This document shows positions 7,837-18,635 of a stretch of 64,000 nucleotides of DNA, piece by piece (positions within the stretch are counted from its first letter, which is position 1; each line of letters starts with the position of its first letter). The position numbers and the translations under genes are program-made. The notes beneath the pieces were generated by a model, which was not told where the DNA came from, searched no databases, and was given only the letters and a program-made list of their open reading frames with translations. The stretch comes from a virus (lineage: Duplodnaviria > Caudoviricetes): positions 17,542 to 81,541 of IMG/VR virus record IMGVR_UViG_2706796489_000001; one strand, 5' to 3'.

Positions 7837-10800
7837 ATGCACATTGCACCTTTGCGTGGAGCCGGTGGCGGCGGGGGCGGCAGCAGCTCCAAGTACAAGC
7901 GCACCGATGACAACCTCTTCTCCCGAGACACCGTTGAACTGGTCCTCGGGTTGAGCGTTGGTCCCATTCGTGGCCTGACCCGTGGCATGAAGAGCTTCTA
8001 CGTTGGCGGCACCCCGCTGATGTCGGAAGGCGGCGACATGAACTTTCAATCTTTCAACCTGGGCGTCAAGCTCGGGTACGAGAGCGATGGTCCGGTCTCC
8101 TACAAGCTGGGTGGCGAATCCTCCAACAAGTCCGTTGGCACGAAGATGATGAGCGGTACGTGGATCAGTCGGCAGACCGAGCAGACCGTGCGCGGCGTGA
8201 TCGACCAGCTCCAGGTTCGCATCAACTTCCAACAGCTGTACCGCACCGACGACAAGGGTGACTACAACCACACCGCGCAGTTCTACATCCAGTACAAGCC
8301 GGCGTCTTCCGGCTGGTGGCAGAACTATGGCGGCGAGATGGTCCAGATCACGGGCAAGACCACCTCTGGCTACTACGTGGACTTCGTCTTCGACGTGCCG
8401 CGCATCAATGATGACTGGCTCATCCGAGTCATGAAGGTGAACCCGGACAGCACGAACACCAACGTGTGCGACATGGCCTGGGACAGCTTTCAAGCTATCA
8501 CCAAGAGCAATCGTCGCTACAACAAGCTGGCACTGGCCCACATCGTCGCGCTGGCCACCAGCCAGTTCGGCTCCATCCCCGACTTTGCTGGCGTCTACGA
8601 TGGTCGCCTCATCCAGATCCCGACGAACTACAACCCTGACACCAGGCTCTACGACGAGATCACGCCGTGGAACGGCACGTTCAAAACGGGTTGGACGAAC
8701 TGCCCGCCGTGGATCTTGTATGACCTGATCATGAATCCCGACTACGGCCTGCGGAAGTATTACCCGCAGATCACGGTCAACCGCTTCGACTTTTACGACG
8801 CGGCCAAGTGGTGCGATACCTTCGTGCCGAACGGCAAGGGTGGCTATCAGCCGCGCTACACGTTCAACATGGCGCTGCTGGAGGCCAAGGATGGTCTGGA
8901 GATGCTGCAATGGATCGCGGGCAGCTTCGGTGCTGTGATCTTCGATGATGCAACCGGCCAGGTCTATCTGAAAGTGGACAAGTGGGAAGAGCCGAAGATG
9001 CTCTTCACGCCGGAGAACGTTGAAGGTGGAGACTTCAACTACAGCTTCACCGACATGACCACGCGGTACAACGACTACAAGGTGCAGTTCGTCAACCCGG
9101 ATCTCGACTGGAACCAGGATCAACGTCGCGTCTACGATCCCACCCACATCGCTTCGCATGGCAACATCCCGACCGAGATGGTCATGGTGGGATGCACCGA
9201 CGAGCATGAAGCGCTGCGCCGTGGTTACTACCGCATGATCACGGCCTTGACCGAAACGTGCTCGGTCACGTTCAACGTTGCTCGCCTGGGCAAGGTGATC
9301 GACCCGTACATGGTCATCGCTATCGCTGACCCGACCCCTGGCTGGTCCGTCAGCGGCCGGATCAAGGCGTACATGAACAGCTACGTCCAGCTGCGAGATC
9401 CGATCTACTTCACGACGGTGCAGAACTACACCATGACCTTGCAGACCGTAGATGGCCTGGTCAAGGTGGTGGTAAATCCTGAGCGCGTGGGGACGGCTTT
9501 CCAGGTCAAGGTGGTGTCGGGCTTTGTGCCGGATGGTCTGCCGGATCGCACGGTGTTCTCTATCGAGGACAACGGCAACTTCGGCGTGGCCAAGCCCTTC
9601 CGGGTAATGGACATCGAGAACATCGAAGGCAGCGCTGATCGCTTCACGATCATGGCCATCGAGATCAACCGGAACAAGCAGGCCGGCGCGGACAACTGCA
9701 CGCCGGTTGGCAGCGTCCAATACTCGTTCAAGAACCCGCTTATCCCTCCACCCCCGATGAACATTCAGGCGGACTCCGGCACCGAGCAAATGATCATCGC
9801 CCAGGATGGTTCCATCATGGCGCGGATCTTCGCGTATTGGGACGCCCCGCCCAACGTGCTAATCGAGCGCTATGAGATCGAGTGGAAAGAGAGCGATCAA
9901 TCCACCTGGTATTACACGACCAGTCCCAGCGAAAGCGTGTTCCTTGCACCTTGCAAGAGCGGCGTGGCTTACGACATCGTGGTCTGGGCTGTGAACTCGT
10001 TCGGCAATCGCTCGTCGGCGCTGACGCTGTTCAACTATGTCTGCATCGGCAAGACCGCGCCCCCGTCGAACGTCAAGAACTTCACGATCCGCCGCCGCAC
10101 GAATGACATCCTGCTGCAATGGGACGCTATCCCCGACCTCGACCGCAAGGGCTACGAGATCCGCATTGGCACGACGTGGGAGACCGCGACCGTGCTGGTG
10201 ACGGACTACTCCGCTACGCAGTTCGCATGGACGACGACTGAAGGCGGAAGCTACTCGTTCTTGATCAGTGCCATCGACTCGTCGGGTAACTACTCGCTGC
10301 TGCCCACGCTGCAAACGATCTACATTCAAGGGCCGAGCGCGGTCACAGGTGTCATCGCCATCCAGTCGAACAACCGCATCGAGCTGCGCTGGACGCCGAA
10401 CCCTGAAGACAACATCTTGGAATACGAGATCCGGGAGGGTGGCGCGTGGGGTACTGCGGTGTTCCTGGCCAAGGTCAAGTCCACCGGCTACAGCGTCACG
10501 GCCGGTTCCGCTGGCACGCGGATGTTCTGGATCAAGGCCATTGCCTCGCCTGGCGTCTACTCCGAACGTGCATCGTTCGTGACGACCGACGTAGCCCAGC
10601 TGGACGACACCAACATCATCTACACGACGGACGAAGTGGCCAATGGCTTCCTCGGTTCGCGCTACAACATGGTGGTGGTCGGCGGCGAGCTGCGAATGGA
10701 CAGCGGCCGGCAGCGTTCCGAGTACATCTTCCCGGTCACGCTACCCACGCGCTTCCGGGCGCAGAACACGCTGTTCGTGGGTCTTGACGCCATCGTGGAC

Positions 10801-11427
10801 TACAGCACGACTTGGGCGCAGGCCACCTACCCGTGGGACGACCCCAAGGCGCGCACGCCGTGGGTCACGCCCGGCGACATCTCATCCATCGGCTACAAGT
10901 CCGAGATCTCGCTGCGCCGCGAGATCCCTGCGGATGTGCTGCACTCCTGGCCCCTGAACGGCACGCTGGTCTCGGAAGGCTTGTCCGACCGCAACCCCGC
11001 CAACATCCTGGAACAGGAGAACATCACCTACGGCACCGGCAAATACGGCCGAGGCCTGTACGTGGAAAGCGGCACGCCGACGCCAACCAAGCTGCGCTAC
11101 ACGACCATCATCCCGTCCACCTTCAGCTTCAGCGCCTGGGTTCGCCCGATGGATGTTGAGGACGACGTGTGGTTCGTGATGGAACGCGGAGCTGACTGGA
11201 TCGCCGTGGTCTACAACAAGGAACGCGAAGCCGTCATGGTCACTTCGACCGACAGCAAGCAGATCCTCATTCCTTTCAAGATCAACCCTGGTGAACGTTA
11301 CCTGGTCACGCTCGTTCAAGGTAGCGGTGATCGCACCTTGTACGTCGGCCGTGAAGACAACACCTATGCCAAGGGCATGGTCTCCGCCTTCCCGATTGGC
11401 GCTATCACCAGCGTGAGGTACTACTGA
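7837..11427 (+). CDS. Tail tip / central fibre protein (gpJ-like) with FN3 repeats and a C-terminal lectin-like region
   Basis: 1196 aa; GPIRGL, WTNCPPWILYDL, RYTFN motifs; repeated W..P..YEIR FN3 modules; FSFSAWVRP LamG-like strand. Confidence 0.9.
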   Translation: MHIAPLRGAGGGGGGSSSKYKRTDDNLFSRDTVELVLGLSVGPIRGLTRGMKSFYVGGTPLMSEGGDMNFQSFNLGVKLGYESDGPVSYKLGGESSNKSVGTKMMSGTWISRQTEQTVRGVIDQLQVRINFQQLYRTDDKGDYNHTAQFYIQYKPASSGWWQNYGGEMVQITGKTTSGYYVDFVFDVPRINDDWLIRVMKVNPDSTNTNVCDMAWDSFQAITKSNRRYNKLALAHIVALATSQFGSIPDFAGVYDGRLIQIPTNYNPDTRLYDEITPWNGTFKTGWTNCPPWILYDLIMNPDYGLRKYYPQITVNRFDFYDAAKWCDTFVPNGKGGYQPRYTFNMALLEAKDGLEMLQWIAGSFGAVIFDDATGQVYLKVDKWEEPKMLFTPENVEGGDFNYSFTDMTTRYNDYKVQFVNPDLDWNQDQRRVYDPTHIASHGNIPTEMVMVGCTDEHEALRRGYYRMITALTETCSVTFNVARLGKVIDPYMVIAIADPTPGWSVSGRIKAYMNSYVQLRDPIYFTTVQNYTMTLQTVDGLVKVVVNPERVGTAFQVKVVSGFVPDGLPDRTVFSIEDNGNFGVAKPFRVMDIENIEGSADRFTIMAIEINRNKQAGADNCTPVGSVQYSFKNPLIPPPPMNIQADSGTEQMIIAQDGSIMARIFAYWDAPPNVLIERYEIEWKESDQSTWYYTTSPSESVFLAPCKSGVAYDIVVWAVNSFGNRSSALTLFNYVCIGKTAPPSNVKNFTIRRRTNDILLQWDAIPDLDRKGYEIRIGTTWETATVLVTDYSATQFAWTTTEGGSYSFLISAIDSSGNYSLLPTLQTIYIQGPSAVTGVIAIQSNNRIELRWTPNPEDNILEYEIREGGAWGTAVFLAKVKSTGYSVTAGSAGTRMFWIKAIASPGVYSERASFVTTDVAQLDDTNIIYTTDEVANGFLGSRYNMVVVGGELRMDSGRQRSEYIFPVTLPTRFRAQNTLFVGLDAIVDYSTTWAQATYPWDDPKARTPWVTPGDISSIGYKSEISLRREIPADVLHSWPLNGTLVSEGLSDRNPANILEQENITYGTGKYGRGLYVESGTPTPTKLRYTTIIPSTFSFSAWVRPMDVEDDVWFVMERGADWIAVVYNKEREAVMVTSTDSKQILIPFKINPGERYLVTLVQGSGDRTLYVGREDNTYAKGMVSAFPIGAITSVRYY

Positions 11428-11921: not shown

Positions 11922-11933
11922 CCGGATAAAATC
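11922..11933 (+). promoter_or_regulatory. Putative late-promoter element CCGGATAAAATC
   Basis: Intergenic, upstream of tail fibre; similar to CCGGTTAGAATC at 16063 and TAAAATC at 21640 (- strand). Confidence 0.3.
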
Positions 11934-11960: not shown

Positions 11961-13412
11961 ATGCAAAACTACACCAACATCCCGTCAAGCCAGCGAGTCT
12001 CCGACTCGCTGGCGCTGTTGCTGAACAACGACCTGACGGGGATCTCGCGCAACAGTGGCACGGCCTTCCCGACCATCGGTCTGCAAGTCGGGATGCCCTT
12101 CGTCCATTTGACCGAGCGCAAGCTGTACCGCCTGGAGAGTCTGTCGCCCGTCACCTGGACGCTGGAGCTGGACCTGGCCAAGACCCTGGTCTACTCGGAA
12201 ACCATTGACACGGTGAACGCGCTGGTGGCCACCAAGGTTTCGCTGTCGGGCGGCGTCATGACCGGATTGCTGACCTTGAGCGGCAACCCGACGCAGACCC
12301 TGCACGCGGCCACCAAGGGCTACGTGGATACGGTCGGCGCTACCGCTTCAGCGTCCGCCAATACCCGCGTGCTCAAGACGGGCGACACCATGACCGGCCA
12401 GCTCACGCTGCCGGGAGATCCGACCTTGGATCTTCATGCGGCGACCAAACGCTATGCCGACTACCTGTTCAACACGGTCAACCAGAACAAGGTGAACAAG
12501 GCCGGCGACACGGTGAACGAGATCTACAACACCGGCTGGTATCGCTCGACGGGTAACGTGGGCTGGTACAACCAGACCTACGGTGGCGGCCTGTACATGG
12601 TTGATTCCGTCTACTTGCGCGGCACGGGCGCACAGGGGTTGATCGTCGGCCCTCACCAGCTACTGAACAACGGTCAGATCTACACCGGACGCTACGGCTA
12701 CCTTGAAAACTACTTCGCTTCCAAGAGCGCGGAAGATCGCATCACGGCGGCGAGCACGACCGAATCGGGCAGCGGCTCCTTCTACAACCCGGGCGGCTAT
12801 TACCTGACGCGCTCCGGCGCCTACGTCTACCTCGTCAAGCCGCGCCAGAACTGCAACTGTGACTGCAACTGCAATTGCTCGTGCTTCCCGGCCGGTACGA
12901 TGGTGCTGATGGCCGATGGGACGCAGAAGCTGATCGAGACCATCCAGGTCGGAGATCAAGTCATGGGCTGGGATGGCCAGCCTGATGAAGTTGACTTGAT
13001 GGAATACCCGATCTTGGGCGAGCGCCGCCTGGCTGGCTTTGCTGACGGCTCGTTGAGCTGGTCGGAAGAGCACCTGGCCTGGACGCGCCGCGATGGCCAC
13101 GAGTGGTTCGGCACGCTGGGCAAGAACTGGTGGTATGCCGAGGTACTGGCGGATCACGTCGTCGGCCTGCGCGACAACGCCACGCTGCGGGATCTGGATG
13201 AAGACCGCGACGAGTTCGCGCACGTTAGCGGCTGGGTCAAGCGCAAGCTGGTGGCCGAGAAGGCCGACTACAACACCCAGCTGTACCTGCCGCGCACCAA
13301 GCGCACGCACATGATCATCGTCAACGGCTACCTGATGACGGCCGGCACTGACGGCTTCGCTGTGGACTACACGCAAGTGAACTGGAAAGGACTCCCCCAT
13401 GTTGCTGCATAA
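11961..13412 (+). CDS. Tail fibre with Cys-rich NCNCDCNCNCS motif and C-terminal Hint domain
   Basis: Two G.TMTG.LTL.G.PT..LHAATK.Y.D fibre repeats; GWYRSTGNVGWYNQTYGGG fibre-tip segment; Hint block A CFPAGTMVLMADG from codon 308, block B SEEH; no terminal His-Asn. Confidence 0.85.
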   Translation: MQNYTNIPSSQRVSDSLALLLNNDLTGISRNSGTAFPTIGLQVGMPFVHLTERKLYRLESLSPVTWTLELDLAKTLVYSETIDTVNALVATKVSLSGGVMTGLLTLSGNPTQTLHAATKGYVDTVGATASASANTRVLKTGDTMTGQLTLPGDPTLDLHAATKRYADYLFNTVNQNKVNKAGDTVNEIYNTGWYRSTGNVGWYNQTYGGGLYMVDSVYLRGTGAQGLIVGPHQLLNNGQIYTGRYGYLENYFASKSAEDRITAASTTESGSGSFYNPGGYYLTRSGAYVYLVKPRQNCNCDCNCNCSCFPAGTMVLMADGTQKLIETIQVGDQVMGWDGQPDEVDLMEYPILGERRLAGFADGSLSWSEEHLAWTRRDGHEWFGTLGKNWWYAEVLADHVVGLRDNATLRDLDEDRDEFAHVSGWVKRKLVAEKADYNTQLYLPRTKRTHMIIVNGYLMTAGTDGFAVDYTQVNWKGLPHVAA

Positions 13413-14121
13413 ATCCTTCGTCTCCCCCGAGCTGGTCTTCTCGGACGACAAAGAAGTGGCCAAGGCCAATGAATGGACCTTGCGTGTTCAACCCACGCCT
13501 ACCGGGTTCATCATCCAGTCTGCGGCCTATCAGCTGTATTGGCAGTTCGACCACACGAAGCTCCAGCACGGCGACGACATCCTGCACCTGGTCAAGGCCC
13601 GCAGCGGTGAGGTCAAGATGATCTGGCACTCCGAGACCACGCAGTCCAAGGACGGCATGGCGGCGGCGCTCCAGCGCAACAACATCGACGTGTTCATGCC
13701 GCTGGTGGTCATCGCCATTGCCAAGGACACGTCCGACTTCGTTGCGGTGTTCCAGGCCAACTCGACCCAGACCCTGGGCGACTTCAACGTGCTGCCCGAG
13801 AACCTGGCCACGGCGCGCTCGGACGAGATCTTCCTGGCCGTCGCGCCGCAGATGACGGACATGATCAACCGTTATGGCGAGAAGATGCGCTTGCTCAAGG
13901 GCATCCGCACCAACGACGCCATCGCGGCGCTGGAGGCCCAGGTGGATCTGCTGACCTCGTGGGTGTCGGCGCTGATCCCCGAGGAATTCCGGGACCAGCT
14001 GATCGAGGCCGGAGTTCTAAGGAACAAAGATACCAAAGTGGTTTTTGATGATATGCTTGCGTTCAAGCAGTCGATGCGCTCCCGCGTTGGCACTTATCAA
14101 AAGATCGTCAAGAAAACATGA
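13399..14121 (+). CDS. Hypothetical protein between tail fibre and radical SAM enzyme
   Basis: 240 aa; overlaps both neighbours; helical C-terminus. Confidence 0.75.
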   Translation: MLLHKSFVSPELVFSDDKEVAKANEWTLRVQPTPTGFIIQSAAYQLYWQFDHTKLQHGDDILHLVKARSGEVKMIWHSETTQSKDGMAAALQRNNIDVFMPLVVIAIAKDTSDFVAVFQANSTQTLGDFNVLPENLATARSDEIFLAVAPQMTDMINRYGEKMRLLKGIRTNDAIAALEAQVDLLTSWVSALIPEEFRDQLIEAGVLRNKDTKVVFDDMLAFKQSMRSRVGTYQKIVKKT

Positions 14122-15482
14122 CCACCTTTGTTCTCAAGACGGTCGATGCCGATGGCATCGGCCGTGATTTTTTGTACAACAACATGGCCAGCGTGTTGCG
14201 TGAGATCAGCACCAACACGAAGATCATGCCGCGTGTCACCGAAGAGAAGGTGACGCCGACCCGCCCGGTCATGGTGACGTGGAAGAAGAGCCGCAAGATC
14301 AGCGTGCTCAAGATTCAGCTGGGTCTGTCCTGCAACTACTCCTGCGAATACTGTCTCCAGCGCTTCGTGCCATTCGAGCAAGACACGAGCGCCCGCGATG
14401 TCGAGGCCTTCATGGCCAGCCTGGAGCGCAACGTCACGCTGGCGCCTAACGCCCGCATCCAGTTCTGGGGCGGCGAGCCGCTGGTCTACTGGAAGACCAT
14501 GTTCCCCTTGGCGCGAGCACTGCGCGCCAAGTACCCCGAGGCACAGTTCTCGGTCATCACCAATGGTTCATTGTTGGATTTCGAGAAGGCCTTGTTCCTG
14601 CTGGAGCTGGGCTTTGACGTGGCCATCTCGCACGACGGCCCCGGCCAGTCGATCCGAGGTGCTGACCCGTTCGAAGATCCGCTCACGCGCCAGGCCATTC
14701 TCATGCTCTACCAGCGCCTGCAACCGCTGGGCAAGATGTCCTTCAACGCGATGATCCACAAGAACAACCAGAGCCGCGCTGCGGTTCAAGAGTTCTTCCA
14801 GAAGCTGACCAACGATCCTGACGTGCCGATTGGTGAAGGCGGCTTCATCGACGCCTACGATGAAGGCGGCATGATGCACACGACCATGACCGCGCAAGAG
14901 CACGTCGAGTTCCGCCGGCAGGCGTTCGATGAGATCTCCAATGGTCGAGCCTTGAACTTCGTGTCGGTCGGCCAGAAGATCATGGACTTCTTCGAAACGC
15001 TGGACACTGGCCGCAGCGGCTACCACGTCTGGCAGAAGTGCGGCATGGATAAGGAAGACCGCATCGCGGTCACGCTCAAGGGCGACGTGCTGACGTGCCA
15101 GAACGTCTCAACCACGGCGGTCGCGGCGAACGGTGCCTCGCACCATGTCGGCAACATCGAGCGGATGGAAGAGGTCAAGATCGAAACCAGCAGCCACTGG
15201 CTCGGCCGCGAGAACTGCCGGTCATGCCCGGTGCTTCAGCTGTGCAAAGGCTCCTGCATGTACCTGCAAGGCGACCTGTGGGATGCGAGCTGCGCGGCCT
15301 CGTACAGCGACAACGTGGTCTTGCTGGCCGTGGCCGTGAAAGAGCTGACGGGATGCACGCTCAAGACCATCGAGCCGCTGGGCGACAAGCTCCCTGACTA
15401 CCGGCGCAACGTGTTCGATGACGCCCCCAAGAACGAAACGCACCTTCGGAAAATCATTCCGATCACCCTGGAGAAGAAGTGA
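14118..15482 (+). CDS. Radical SAM enzyme with SPASM domain
   Basis: CNYSCEYC (CX3CX2C, 14331-14354), WGGEP, ITNG, ISHDG; seven-Cys SPASM CX13GX4C...CX2CX5CX3C...C. Confidence 0.95.
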   Translation: MTTFVLKTVDADGIGRDFLYNNMASVLREISTNTKIMPRVTEEKVTPTRPVMVTWKKSRKISVLKIQLGLSCNYSCEYCLQRFVPFEQDTSARDVEAFMASLERNVTLAPNARIQFWGGEPLVYWKTMFPLARALRAKYPEAQFSVITNGSLLDFEKALFLLELGFDVAISHDGPGQSIRGADPFEDPLTRQAILMLYQRLQPLGKMSFNAMIHKNNQSRAAVQEFFQKLTNDPDVPIGEGGFIDAYDEGGMMHTTMTAQEHVEFRRQAFDEISNGRALNFVSVGQKIMDFFETLDTGRSGYHVWQKCGMDKEDRIAVTLKGDVLTCQNVSTTAVAANGASHHVGNIERMEEVKIETSSHWLGRENCRSCPVLQLCKGSCMYLQGDLWDASCAASYSDNVVLLAVAVKELTGCTLKTIEPLGDKLPDYRRNVFDDAPKNETHLRKIIPITLEKK

Positions 15483-15883
15483 TGAACGACCCTCAAGCTC
15501 AAGCTCAACCCCGCGAACCCGGCGACTACATGATCCAGGCGCTGCAACACCAGCGCAACAACGCCATGGACTTGCTGGCGCAGACCCAGATGTCCCTGGG
15601 CATGGCTCAACAAGGCCTGGAGCAAGCCATCGCGCAGAACAAGGCGCTCAACGAGATGAACGAGGCCATGATCAAGGCCAACGCCGAGCTGGAAGGTGAG
15701 CTGGCGCGCCTGCGGTCGGAGAACCAGATCCTGGCCACCAAGCTCGACTCGCACGCGCACTGCGCGCAAGGGGAGGGGGTCTTGACCACGTTGCTCACGG
15801 CCGACAATCCGCCCGCGCATACCCCGCCTCCCCCTCAAGCCCAGGCGGGCGAGCCGGCCACGGCGAGGGGGTCGGAAAGTTGA
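15479..15883 (+). CDS. Coiled-coil hypothetical protein, last gene of the fibre/rSAM operon
   Basis: ATGA overlap with rSAM stop; heptad-like Gln/Leu pattern; Pro-rich tail. Confidence 0.7.
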   Translation: MMNDPQAQAQPREPGDYMIQALQHQRNNAMDLLAQTQMSLGMAQQGLEQAIAQNKALNEMNEAMIKANAELEGELARLRSENQILATKLDSHAHCAQGEGVLTTLLTADNPPAHTPPPPQAQAGEPATARGSES

Positions 15884-16004
15884 CGCCCCACCAGTGGTCG
15901 TGGAAGAGGCGCTGGCGCGTTTTCTGAACGCCGTTGGGGACCAGATAGCAGCACTGGCCAGAAAGCTCCCCAGAGGCCGGAATCGCAGGCCATAGCCCTA
16001 TGTG

Positions 16005-16033
16005 AAAGCGCCCTTGACGGGCGCTTTTTCTTT
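16005..16033 (+). terminator. Intrinsic terminator
   Basis: AAAGCGCCC-TTGAC-GGGCGCTTT followed by TTCTTT. Confidence 0.85.
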
Positions 16034-16062
16034 CCAGAAAACCTTTGGGTAGATGCAACCAT

Positions 16063-18014: not shown

Positions 18015-18635
18015 ATGGCCACCAACCCTCTTATCCCTAACAACGCAGATGGCCAGAAGGTGATCCTGGTCGTAGCACCCGTAGTGAATGCCGGAGATAA
18101 CATCGTGCCTATCAAGATGCTTTATGGAAGCGGCGCGCCGTCGAATGCTGACGGCGACGAGAAAGACTTCTACATGAACATCGACAACTACTATCTCTTC
18201 GGTCCCAAGACCCAGGGTCTGTGGGGGACCGGCATCAACCTGCGTGAGAAGGGAGAGCAAGGCCCGCCCGGGGACATCAACCTGGAGAAGATCGAAGAGA
18301 TCATCGGACCTTCTGGCGCGAATGCCGAAATCGTGATCGACCTCTCGCTGGTCAAGTCGGTGTTCAAGATCAAGCTCAATGCTTCGATGAACAAGATCAC
18401 GCTGGTGAACACGACCACGGCCGACGCTTCGATTGCGCGCACCTTCACGGCTGTGCTGGAGCAAGGCACCGGCAGCAACGAAGTCACCGACTGGGACGCC
18501 CGTATCCGTTGGCCCGATGGTCTGCCGCCTGAGCTGTCGTATCAGATCTCCACCTACGACATCTTCCACTTCCTGTCGCTCAATCGCGGTGACTCGTTCA
18601 TCCCGATGCGCGTTGCGGCCAACGCCCCGGTGTAA
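18015..18635 (+). CDS. Virion appendage-like protein with a short collagen-like motif
   Basis: G.GAPSNADG..KDFY, GEQGPPGD, W...IRWP.G.PP fibre-type motifs. Confidence 0.6.
   Translation: MATNPLIPNNADGQKVILVVAPVVNAGDNIVPIKMLYGSGAPSNADGDEKDFYMNIDNYYLFGPKTQGLWGTGINLREKGEQGPPGDINLEKIEEIIGPSGANAEIVIDLSLVKSVFKIKLNASMNKITLVNTTTADASIARTFTAVLEQGTGSNEVTDWDARIRWPDGLPPELSYQISTYDIFHFLSLNRGDSFIPMRVAANAPV

What the first reader, a model, noticed from the sequence alone, without database searches (positions are those of the whole stretch)
11961..15883. Candidate RiPP-like system that modifies a virion tail fibre: fibre(Cys-repeat)-Hint, accessory protein, radical SAM/SPASM enzyme, coiled-coil protein
Seen: four translationally coupled genes form one unit between a putative promoter at 11922 and a terminator at 16005, inside the tail module. 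The fibre ends its structural part in NCNCDCNCNCS, immediately followed by a Hint domain. Two genes downstream is a radical SAM enzyme with a complete SPASM domain. Established: SPASM-domain rSAM enzymes (AlbA, CteB, PapB, NxxcB) cross-link Cys thiols to carbons of neighbouring residues in peptides, and their genes sit next to the substrate gene. Inference: the phage enzyme installs thioether cross-links, or loads a metal cluster, on the fibre tip, and the Hint domain then cleaves itself off. This would be post-translational chemistry on a receptor-binding protein. I know of no characterisation of such a system.
Basis: partly seen in the sequence, partly recalled or inferred. Interest (0 to 1): 0.92.

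Follow-up and report, generated by a model that had tools for sequence, protein, structure and literature searches.

The report
Self-cleaving Asn-Cys fibre tail with radical-SAM enzyme
A tail fibre of an Achromobacter phage ends in an Asn-Cys ladder, then a self-cleaving Hint domain, and it sits two genes from a dedicated radical-SAM enzyme; the ladder and enzyme recur together in almost every related phage sampled, so these viruses probably cross-link their fibre tips by peptide-antibiotic-type chemistry that no searched paper describes.

Summary
Four overlapping genes lie between the gpJ-like tip protein and the lysis genes. They encode a 483-aa fibre (NCNCDCNCNCS, then a complete Hint fold whose Cys1 is C308), a 240-aa protein of unknown fold, a radical SAM enzyme with a 7-Cys SPASM domain, and a small helical protein.

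The key result is co-occurrence. The enzyme family is on more than 590 viral contigs and in 201 species genomes. In 110 of 113 loci with enough upstream DNA, a co-directional upstream protein carries an (Asn/Ala/Asp-Cys)3-8 ladder, nearly always as its extreme C-terminus. Only a minority, including this window, add a Hint domain. Removing the Hint would recreate the free C-terminal tail that the other phages encode directly.

Best reading (about 0.55):
- The Hint cuts itself off at Ser307|Cys308.
- The enzyme then installs Cys-to-Asn/Asp thioethers, as NxxcB and PapB do, on a virion protein.

This chemistry is inferred, not shown. The 240-aa protein is a real family with unknown function. It is mutually exclusive with an Ig-domain protein found in other loci. 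The coiled-coil gene is not a conserved part, and the promoter was not confirmed.

The scan has already noted the ladder and enzyme pair on other DNA. New here are the Hint fusion and a minimal, oxygenase-free version, very probably in the cultured phage JWF.

The parts
11961..13412 (+). Tail-fibre gene (483 aa). It has an N-terminal fibre part, a C-terminal Asn-Cys ladder and a Hint domain.
   Evidence: ORF. PHROG tail-fibre hits and Pfam Shufflon_N and Hom_end_hint. It follows the gpJ-like gene 7837-11427. It falls in cluster c2 with the ladder-tailed proteins of other loci.
12849..12881 (+). Asn/Asp-Cys ladder NCNCDCNCNCS (aa 297-307). It is the predicted substrate of the rSAM enzyme and the predicted mature C-terminus after Hint cleavage.
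   Evidence: Sequence. The same ladder type ends the upstream protein in 110 of 113 related loci. It is disordered in the monomer model.
12882..13409 (+). Hint domain (aa 308-483). Cys1 is C308, block B is S368-x-x-H371, and N455-G456 are conserved. There is no terminal His-Asn and no downstream extein.
   Evidence: Pfam hit. Cys1 aligns with PI-SceI Cys1. Invariant residues over 38 homologues are.
13399..14121 (+). Accessory protein 'c12' (240 aa). It has an N-terminal beta domain and a C-terminal helical bundle. Its function is unknown.
   Evidence: No Pfam, PHROG or NCBIfam hit. A profile search found 364 cluster representatives. The model has pLDDT 90. No structural match was found. It is present in 26 of 113 loci and never occurs with c3.
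14118..15482 (+). Radical SAM / SPASM enzyme (454 aa; phrog_1802).
   Evidence: Family hits. Invariant Cys pattern. The closest solved structures by sequence are the RiPP maturases 8vpo and 5wgg (CteB) and anSME 4k37.
15479..15883 (+). Small helical protein (134 aa). It is translationally coupled but clade-specific, and probably not part of the conserved system.
   Evidence: ORF. tblastn found homologues only in L001 and L003.
16004..16035 (+). Terminator-like hairpin plus T-run that closes the unit.
   Evidence: Sequence. Fold energy -17.2 kcal/mol. The consensus scan did not list it.

Best explanation
This is a protein-level, RiPP-like maturation system for a virion tail fibre.

Proposed steps:
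1. The fibre is made with a C-terminal Asn/Asp-Cys ladder fused to a Hint domain.
2. The Hint performs an N-to-S acyl shift at Ser307-Cys308. The thioester is then resolved, most simply by water. This releases the 176-residue Hint and leaves the ladder as a free, flexible C-terminal tail, which is the form most related phages encode directly.
3. The rSAM/SPASM enzyme abstracts a hydrogen atom from the Asn/Asp (or Ala) residues of the ladder. It joins neighbouring Cys thiols to those carbons. The resulting thioether staples lie within a chain or between the chains of the presumably trimeric fibre.
4. The result would be a reduction-proof, protease-resistant distal tip.

The 240-aa c12 protein probably helps this step or fibre assembly, as a substrate-presenting partner or chaperone.

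Shown: the gene content, the motifs, the Hint fold and the near-obligate pairing of ladder and enzyme.
Inferred: the cleavage, the order of events, the thioether chemistry, the trimeric state and the role of c12.
For: 1. Pairing. The enzyme family is on more than 590 viral contigs and in 201 species genomes.
   - 63 of 65 viral loci had the ladder upstream.
   - 51 of 53 genomic loci with at least 3 kb upstream had it.
   - In a joint HMM table, 110 of 113 loci had it in a co-directional upstream ORF.
   - In a looser (xC)3 control count, hits elsewhere were Arg/Ser/Gly-rich off-frame junk and none was of the NCNC type.
   - The ladder-bearing proteins range from about 95 to about 690 aa and come from different phage backbones, so the tail tracks the enzyme and not the fibre body.
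2. Position. 62 viral and 52 genomic ladders lie within 6 residues of the C-terminus.
3. Composition. In 75 distinct tails the non-Cys positions are N 67%, A 12.5% and D 11%. NxxcB makes a Cys-to-Asn beta-thioether and tolerates Ala, Gln and Asp as acceptor (PMC9389541). PapB links Cys to Asp/Glu and to C-terminal residues (PMC12373016). Every N in the ladder is the N of an NxxC motif.
4. Enzyme. It has the rSAM motif and a full 7-Cys SPASM pattern. Its best family and structure matches are peptide and protein maturases.
5. Hint. Cys1, S/T-x-x-H and the whole fold are conserved. There is no terminal Asn, so only N-terminal cleavage is possible. All four other (NC)n-Hint proteins examined have an rSAM gene 0-3 genes downstream. 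Two of those rSAM genes clearly belong to this family.
Against: - No mass spectrometry, virion proteomics or genetics exists for any member, so the chemistry rests on analogy.
- The enzyme scores far below the curated cut-off of every named maturase family, so it cannot be filed with a known reaction.
- anSME, which oxidises Cys and does not cross-link it, aligns over the full length about as well as the thioether formers.
- Most relatives also carry 2OG-Fe(II) oxygenase-like genes (87 of 113). This suggests further or different chemistry on the same tail.
- No RiPP recognition element was found in the enzyme or in c12.
- If the Hint stays attached, the ladder would be an internal linker, unlike in the other loci.
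Confidence: 0.55

Rival explanations
1. The enzyme does act on the ladder, but the reaction is not thioether formation. Candidates are anSME-like oxidation of Cys to formylglycine, dehydro-residue formation, epimerisation, or C-C or C-N cross-links at Asn/Asp. In relatives these could work together with the oxygenases.
For: anSME aligns over the full length (residues 67-381, 1e-13; 4k37 at 1e-8). No named thioether family passes its cut-off. 87 of 113 loci carry 2OG-oxygenase-like genes, which fits Asn/Asp hydroxylation as an alternative chemistry.
Against: The anSME substrate motif C/S-x-P/A-x-R is absent from the fibre. The strict alternation of Cys with N/A/D fits a donor-acceptor pattern. 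Only seven conserved SPASM Cys were seen, without the extra upstream Cys of anSME. That last comparison comes from my own knowledge of anSME and was not tested structurally.
Confidence: 0.2
2. The Hint does not cleave. It stays on the fibre as a distal domain, so the ladder is an internal linker that the enzyme modifies or that binds a metal.
For: Cleavage has not been observed. About half of this Hint family lacks a ladder and sits at the end of varied adhesin-like proteins. One of these is in a type IVb pilus locus.
Against: Cys1, the block B S/T-x-x-H motif and the fold are invariant across 38 members, which suggests selection for catalysis. Relatives end exactly where cleavage would occur. 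The residue before Cys1 is small (Ser, Thr or Cys) in every member listed.
Confidence: 0.12
3. The ladder is not the enzyme's substrate. The enzyme acts on c12/c3, on another phage or host molecule, or builds a cofactor. On this view the ladder is a metal-binding or disulfide zipper that travels in the same mobile fibre module.
For: c3 or c12 is also present in 106 of 113 loci. No direct enzyme-substrate evidence exists.
Against: c3 and c12 are unrelated families, and c12 has no conserved Cys. The ladder stays with the enzyme across unrelated fibre bodies and phage types, sometimes as three tandem ~100-aa ladder proteins. SPASM enzymes characteristically act on neighbouring peptide or protein substrates (established knowledge).
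Confidence: 0.07

Closest known systems
NxxcB / NxxcA (streptococcal RaS-RiPP, beta-thioether)
   Same: An rSAM/SPASM-type enzyme sits next to a substrate with NxxC motifs. The acceptor is Asn, with Ala, Gln and Asp tolerated (PMC9389541). This matches the N/A/D usage of the phage ladders.
   Different: The NxxcB substrate is a short leader-bearing peptide from a quorum-sensing-regulated bacterial cluster. Here the substrate is the C-terminal tail of a virion fibre, with overlapping NxxC registers and no leader peptidase. Enzyme homology to NxxcB was not tested, because no model was available.
PapB/freyrasin and CteB/SCIFF (ranthipeptide maturases)
   Same: These are rSAM/SPASM enzymes that make multiple Cys thioethers to Asp/Glu or other residues. 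PapB also handles C-terminal residues (PMC12373016). They give partial sequence matches.
   Different: Scores are far below the family cut-offs: 55.7 against 340 bits for PapB and 43.9 against 425 bits for the SCIFF maturase. No N-terminal RRE was detected. The substrate here is a structural protein.
QhpD / QhpC of quinohemoprotein amine dehydrogenase
   Same: It is a precedent for an rSAM/SPASM enzyme installing Cys-to-Asp/Glu thioethers in a protein subunit and not in a secreted peptide (my knowledge). There is a weak match to TIGR03906.
   Different: The score is 46 against a cut-off of 453 bits. The context is a periplasmic enzyme subunit, with no repeat ladder, no virion and no Hint.
Anaerobic sulfatase-maturating enzyme (anSME, PDB 4K36-4K39)
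   Same: It is an rSAM/SPASM enzyme acting on Cys in a folded-protein substrate. The alignment covers the full length.
   Different: The score is 51 against a cut-off of 349 bits. The sulfatase motif is absent. anSME gives formylglycine and no cross-link.
Hedgehog Hog domain and bacterial intein-like (BIL) domains
   Same: The Hint fold, Cys1 and the T/S-x-x-H motif are shared. These are C-terminal autoprocessing domains that leave via a thioester. This one also has a short conserved C-terminal extension after the Hint core.
   Different: There is no sterol-recognition region and no evidence of an adduct. The domain sits on a phage fibre, directly after a Cys ladder, and is genetically coupled to an rSAM enzyme.
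Self-cleaving intramolecular chaperone domains of phage fibres and tailspikes (Peptidase_S74, e.g. K1F endosialidase, T5 pb1)
   Same: A C-terminal domain of a fibre is thought to remove itself after assembly (my knowledge). An S74-bearing fibre gene lies next to one (NC)n-Hint gene.
   Different: The fold and the chemistry differ: a Ser-Lys protease there, a Hint thioester here. No enzyme-modified tail is known for S74 fibres.

Membership tests
Radical SAM superfamily (PF04055) | CX3CX2C cluster motif and a core domain above the Pfam gathering score | tested here: met
   37.7 bits against a cut-off of 29.5. C72, C76 and C79 are invariant in 24 homologues.
SPASM domain (TIGR04085) | The seven-Cys pattern CX9-15GX4C, gap, CX2CX5CX3C, gap, C, and a score above the cut-off | tested here: met
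   34.5 bits against a cut-off of 27. C308, G322, C327, C367, C370, C376, C380 and C392 are invariant.
PapB family ranthipeptide maturase (NF047865) | Whole-protein score above the curated cut-off (340 bits) | tested here: not met
   55.7 bits, and only the N-terminal 120 positions match.
SCIFF maturase / CteB (TIGR03974) | Score above 425 bits and an N-terminal RRE domain | tested here: not met
   43.9 bits. 5wgg matches only residues 52-175. The N-terminal extension before the core is only about 55 aa. An RRE was not tested structurally.
Anaerobic sulfatase maturase (TIGR03942) | Score above 349 bits and a substrate with the C/S-x-P/A-x-R motif | tested here: not met
   51.2 bits. The fibre's Cys residues lie only in the ladder and the Hint, with no such motif.
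QhpD (TIGR03906) | Score above 453 bits | tested here: not met
   46.2 bits, a partial match.
NxxC RaS-RiPP system | A substrate with repeated NxxC motifs next to the rSAM enzyme | tested here: met
   In NCNCDCNCNCSC every N or D lies three residues before a Cys. The ladder neighbours the enzyme in 110 of 113 loci.
NxxC RaS-RiPP system | Enzyme orthologous to NxxcB, and a leader peptide with quorum-sensing regulation | not tested
   The libraries used hold no NxxcB model. The substrate here is a 483-aa fibre and not a leader-core peptide.
Hint superfamily | Nucleophilic Cys/Ser at position 1, block B T/S-x-x-H, and the Hint fold | tested here: met
   C308 aligns with PI-SceI Cys1. S368 and H371 are conserved or invariant. 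Foldseek gives probability 1.00 to BIL2, inteins and Hedgehog.
Intein (protein splicing) | A C-terminal His-Asn and a downstream +1 Cys/Ser/Thr extein residue | tested here: not met
   The core ends in ...VNGYLMTAG, with Thr-Ala where His-Asn would be. About 25 more residues and the stop codon follow, with no extein.
Hedgehog-type Hog domain | A Hint followed by an adduct-recognition region that transfers a nucleophile to the thioester | not testable with these tools
   A conserved ~25-aa extension follows the Hint core (Y470 and W475 are conserved). Nothing shows adduct transfer.
Phage tail fibre | Fibre-type sequence repeats and a position in the tail module after the tip or host-specificity protein | tested here: met
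   PHROG tail-fibre families reach 5e-9, and Shufflon_N scores above its cut-off. The gene follows the gpJ-like gene here and in most relatives. Presence in virions was not tested.

The most novel reading that the evidence does not exclude
The Hint thioester is not simply hydrolysed. As Hedgehog hands its thioester to cholesterol, the fibre would pass its activated C-terminus to a nucleophile. Candidates are a ladder thiol (giving a thiolactone or macrocycle), another fibre chain, c12, or a cell-envelope molecule. Together with rSAM thioethers this would give a covalently closed or covalently anchored receptor-binding tip. One observation hints that thioester-coupled tail chemistry is a wider theme: ladder-less members of the same Hint family sit next to other modifying enzymes. 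These are a class-V aminotransferase/desulfurase-like gene, a sulfotransferase, and three rSAM genes.
Probability: 0.1. Interest if true: 0.95.

Novelty: new variant of a known kind. Interest (0 to 1): 0.8.

Why it matters
- **New kind of virion chemistry.** If the reading is right, phages use radical-SAM peptide cross-linking to harden or shape the distal tip of a host-recognition fibre. This chemistry is known from RiPP natural products and a few enzyme subunits. I found no paper reporting such a covalent modification of a virion protein.
- **Scale.** The pairing occurs on hundreds of viral contigs and in prophages of about 200 bacterial species, mostly Burkholderiales. It is a common, overlooked feature and not a curiosity.
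- **Tractability.** This window offers the smallest version: fibre, one helper and one enzyme, with no oxygenases. It lies in what is very probably a cultured phage (JWF), and phage 2-1 is a second isolate, so the idea can be tested directly.
- **Other uses.** The Hint fusion suggests a self-removing handle for making free C-terminal tails, which could interest protein engineers. The enzyme may be a useful thioether ligase for tails on folded proteins.

Tried and rejected
- c12 fold searches gave nothing usable. Foldseek against PDB had no hit at E <= 0.001. VIA-align wide reached at most Z 5.5, and only on a helical hairpin. ESM Atlas by shape gave TM <= 0.37. Atlas by features scored < 0.9.
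- Profile comparisons of c12 with c3 and with the oxygenase-like c4 found no relationship.
- I considered that c12 might be a cryptic oxygenase. I rejected this because it has no conserved His.
- The promoter scan found no sigma-70-like site.
- A search for oxygenase-like genes in the rest of the window and in the complete genome found none.
- Eight literature searches found no description of the system: plus 58 and 73 for identifiers. The one cyanophage paper that mentions a phage rSAM maturase calls it an 'antibiotic synthesis gene' without analysis.
- The original JWF genome paper is not held. NC_029075 is not in the searchable phage collection.
- The greedy ORF caller mis-picked antisense ORFs in this GC-rich DNA. 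The final counts therefore use stop-to-stop + strand frames and HMMs.

Full report
**What is in the window**

Four + strand ORFs overlap end to start:
- 11961-13412 (483 aa)
- 13399-14121 (240 aa)
- 14118-15482 (454 aa)
- 15479-15883 (134 aa)

A gpJ-like tip protein (7837-11427; phrog_31, 5e-177) and a 157-aa ORF lie upstream. An endolysin lies downstream at 16045. A hairpin at 16004-16028 (-17.2 kcal/mol) with a T-run closes the unit. The consensus scan found no sigma-70-like promoter, so the promoter proposed at 11922 is unconfirmed.

**Which genome this is**

The window is bases 17542-81541 of a complete 81,541-bp virus record with direct terminal repeats. Several facts point to Achromobacter phage JWF:
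- JWF (NC_029075.1) is reported as 81,541 bp with 118 ORFs (PMC9959647; PMC10457797).
- The annotation of the closest public relative, Achromobacter phage 2-1, names NC_029075_p30 as the PHROG reference for its rSAM gene. Phage 2-1 has 78% DNA identity and 80% rSAM identity to the window.
- That accession is missing from the searchable collection, as expected for the window's own record.

So the window is very probably phage JWF. This is an inference.

**The fibre**

The N-terminal 296 residues hit tail-fibre PHROGs and Shufflon_N. Residues 297-307 read NCNCDCNCNCS (nt 12849-12881).

C308 begins a Hint domain:
- It aligns residue for residue with Cys1 of the PI-SceI intein.
- Pfam Hom_end_hint scores 3e-12.
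- In 38 homologues C308, H371 (in W-S-E-E-H, the block B S/T-x-x-H motif), N455 and G456 are invariant.
- An AlphaFold model of aa 262-483 (pLDDT 85) matches complete Hint domains: BIL2 6y75 (E 2e-7, TM 0.78 by target), the Prp8 intein, Hedgehog 1at0 and the Clostridium BIL domain 2lwy.
- The ladder itself is disordered in the monomer model.
- The core ends ...VNGYLMTAG, with Thr-Ala where inteins have His-Asn. About 25 conserved residues and the stop codon follow.

This is therefore not a splicing intein. It is a Hog/BIL-like domain able to cut only at its N-terminal junction.

**The enzyme**

It passes Pfam Radical_SAM and the NCBIfam SPASM domain model, and it belongs to phrog_1802 (2e-74). 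The CX3CX2C motif (C72/76/79) and the seven SPASM Cys, with G322, are invariant in 24 homologues of 46-87% identity.

It is below the cut-off of every named maturase family. The best matches are geopeptide, PapB, Nif11-type, anSME, CcpM, QhpD and SCIFF, each at 44-63 bits against cut-offs of 340-519.

The closest solved structures by sequence are:
- 8vpo, an RS-SPASM structure cited in the cyclopropylglycine synthase paper PMC10878394
- CteB 5wgg
- anSME 4k37

All three are peptide- or protein-modifying enzymes.

**The decisive test: co-occurrence**

The family has thousands of metagenomic members. It matched more than 590 IMG/VR contigs and 201 species genomes, mostly Burkholderiales prophages.
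- Best 80 viral loci: 63 of 65 with at least 3 kb upstream carry an (xC)>=3 ladder in a co-directional upstream frame. 62 ladders lie within 6 residues of the C-terminus and 10 are followed by a Hint-sized tail.
- Independent genomic set: 51 of 53 loci carry a strict NCxCxC ladder, and 52 ladders are C-terminal.
- Joint HMM table of 113 loci: the ladder is present in 110.
- Control: (xC)3 hits elsewhere in the same DNA are Arg/Ser/Gly-rich off-frame junk. None is of the NCNC type.

The ladder-bearing proteins range from about 95 to about 690 aa. They include three tandem ~100-aa proteins in L004/L005 and the side-fibre fragment of the myovirus Ralstonia phage RSP15, which ends NCQCGN. So the tail tracks the enzyme, and not any particular fibre body.

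**The ladder**

In 75 distinct tails there are 3-8 xC units. The non-Cys positions are N 67%, A 12.5% and D 11%. A beta-strand-like motif (roughly N-G-S-Q-I-x-L-R-x-V-x-Y-x-F) precedes the ladder.

NxxcB forms a Cys-to-Asn beta-thioether and tolerates Ala, Gln and Asp as acceptor but not Ser/Thr in place of Cys (PMC9389541). PapB links Cys to Asp/Glu and also to C-terminal residues (PMC12373016). In the ladder every N or D lies three residues before a Cys, so overlapping NxxC registers exist.

**The Hint is an optional module**

Only 12 of 113 loci have it. The same Hint family, 42 proteins in all, ends varied proteins:
- 20 have three or more xC units directly before Cys1, and one more (P0129) has shorter NC motifs there.
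- All four ladder-bearing members examined have an rSAM gene 0-3 genes downstream. They lie on different backbones, including an SU10-like phage (L170) and a lambda-like phage (L172), and those two rSAM genes belong to this same family.
- Three ladder-less members were examined. One sits before three rSAM genes (L086), one before a class-V aminotransferase-type gene (L087), and one in a type IVb pilus locus before a sulfotransferase (L088).

Because nearly all Hint-less relatives end at the ladder, the simplest reading is that Hint cleavage at Ser307|Cys308 recreates that free C-terminal tail.

**Accessory genes**

Most relatives carry two further genes between fibre and enzyme:
- c3, about 285 aa, whose C-terminal third I read from its alignment as Ig-like (not tested with a domain or fold search).
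- One or more 2OG-Fe(II) oxygenase-like proteins. c13 and c20 pass Pfam. c4 is related to c13 at 98.5% hhalign probability.

The window has neither, and its whole genome has no such oxygenase.

Instead it has c12, the 240-aa protein:
- It is a real family, with 364 cluster representatives.
- Its confident model (pLDDT 90) shows a beta domain plus a helical bundle.
- It matches nothing in PDB or the ESM Atlas.
- Its invariant residues are E179, D183, K223 and R227, with no Cys or His.
- c3 (80 loci) and c12 (26 loci) never co-occur, which suggests analogous roles. c12 is unrelated to c3 and c4 at profile level.

The 134-aa protein has homologues only in the two nearest relatives, so it is not part of the conserved system.

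**Mechanism proposed**

1. Hint autoproteolysis.
2. A free ladder tail.
3. rSAM-catalysed Cys-to-Asn/Asp thioethers, within or between the chains of the fibre.

Steps shown: gene content, motifs, folds and pairing. Steps inferred: the cleavage, the order of events, the bond type, the trimeric state and the c12 role.

Rivals:
- Another Cys or Asn chemistry, such as anSME-like oxidation.
- A Hint that does not cleave.
- A different substrate for the enzyme.

**Comparison with the known, and novelty**

The chemistry class (rSAM/SPASM cross-linking of a neighbouring Cys-rich substrate) is known from ranthipeptides and sactipeptides. At protein level it is known from QhpD and anSME. The Hint class is known from Hedgehog and BIL domains. 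New here are the target (a virion fibre tail), the obligate C-terminal ladder, and in this clade the fusion to a self-removing Hint.

Eight literature searches found no description.

This scan has already reported the ladder and enzyme pair on other DNA. My counts agree with those notes. The additions here are the Hint variant, the exclusivity of c12 and c3, and the minimal oxygenase-free form in a probably cultured phage.

**Limits**

- Only the best 80 loci of each collection were read.
- Loci within a set are related, so the counts are not independent events.
- No structure model of the enzyme was made.
- Nothing here shows that the protein is modified.

Noticed in passing
window 14139-14165 (+), and the same place in L001, L003, L006-L012, L021, L089: A 12-bp GC-rich hairpin followed by a T-run lies 21 nt inside the rSAM ORF. 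The scan flagged it as terminator-like. It is kept in the whole Hint/c12 clade: 93% of cells are paired, and 3 pairs carry compensatory changes. It is absent from other clades. It may be an attenuator that keeps the enzyme sub-stoichiometric to the fibre.
   Followed up: partly
L087 (P0142), L088 (P0158), L086 (P0137): Members of the same Hint family without a ladder end other adhesin-like proteins. One is followed by a class-V aminotransferase/desulfurase-type gene. One lies in a type IVb pilus locus (bundlin, T2SSE/F) before a sulfotransferase. One lies before three rSAM genes. Many carry a single Cys 2-5 residues before Cys1.
   Followed up: partly
L003-L168 (113 loci): The Ig-domain protein c3 (80 loci) and the window's c12 (26 loci) are never found together. 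2OG-Fe(II) oxygenase-like genes are in 87 loci but in none of the 11 Hint + c12 loci.
   Followed up: yes
L004 and L005, 4578-5499: Three tandem ORFs of about 95-110 aa each end in their own Asn-Cys ladder (NCNCNCACNC, NCNCNCNC, NCNCACNC). This resembles the multiple precursor genes of a RiPP cluster.
   Followed up: no
L172 8662-9039: A PanD-like aspartate decarboxylase gene (Pfam Asp_decarbox, a self-processing pyruvoyl enzyme family) lies between the c3 gene and the rSAM gene of a lambda-like phage with an (NC)n-Hint fibre.
   Followed up: no
L161, L167, and L096, L102, L160, L166 and others: There are variant tails. One type has a YCSYCSYCSYCTYC run before the NCNCDC ladder. Another has a recurrent second motif, NCNCG-[AG]-FNC-[RY]-[TS], just upstream of the main ladder.
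   Followed up: no
L040, L049, L056 and L002 (RSP15): Some loci insert up to five extra ~240-290-aa genes of unknown family (c41, c58, c59, c60, c108) between the ladder protein and the enzyme. No Pfam hits were found for them.
   Followed up: no
window 18015-18635 (+): A 206-aa protein hits tail-fibre PHROGs (phrog_9017, 2e-18). It lies after the lysis cassette, apart from the main tail module, and is followed by a 606-aa ORF.
   Followed up: no
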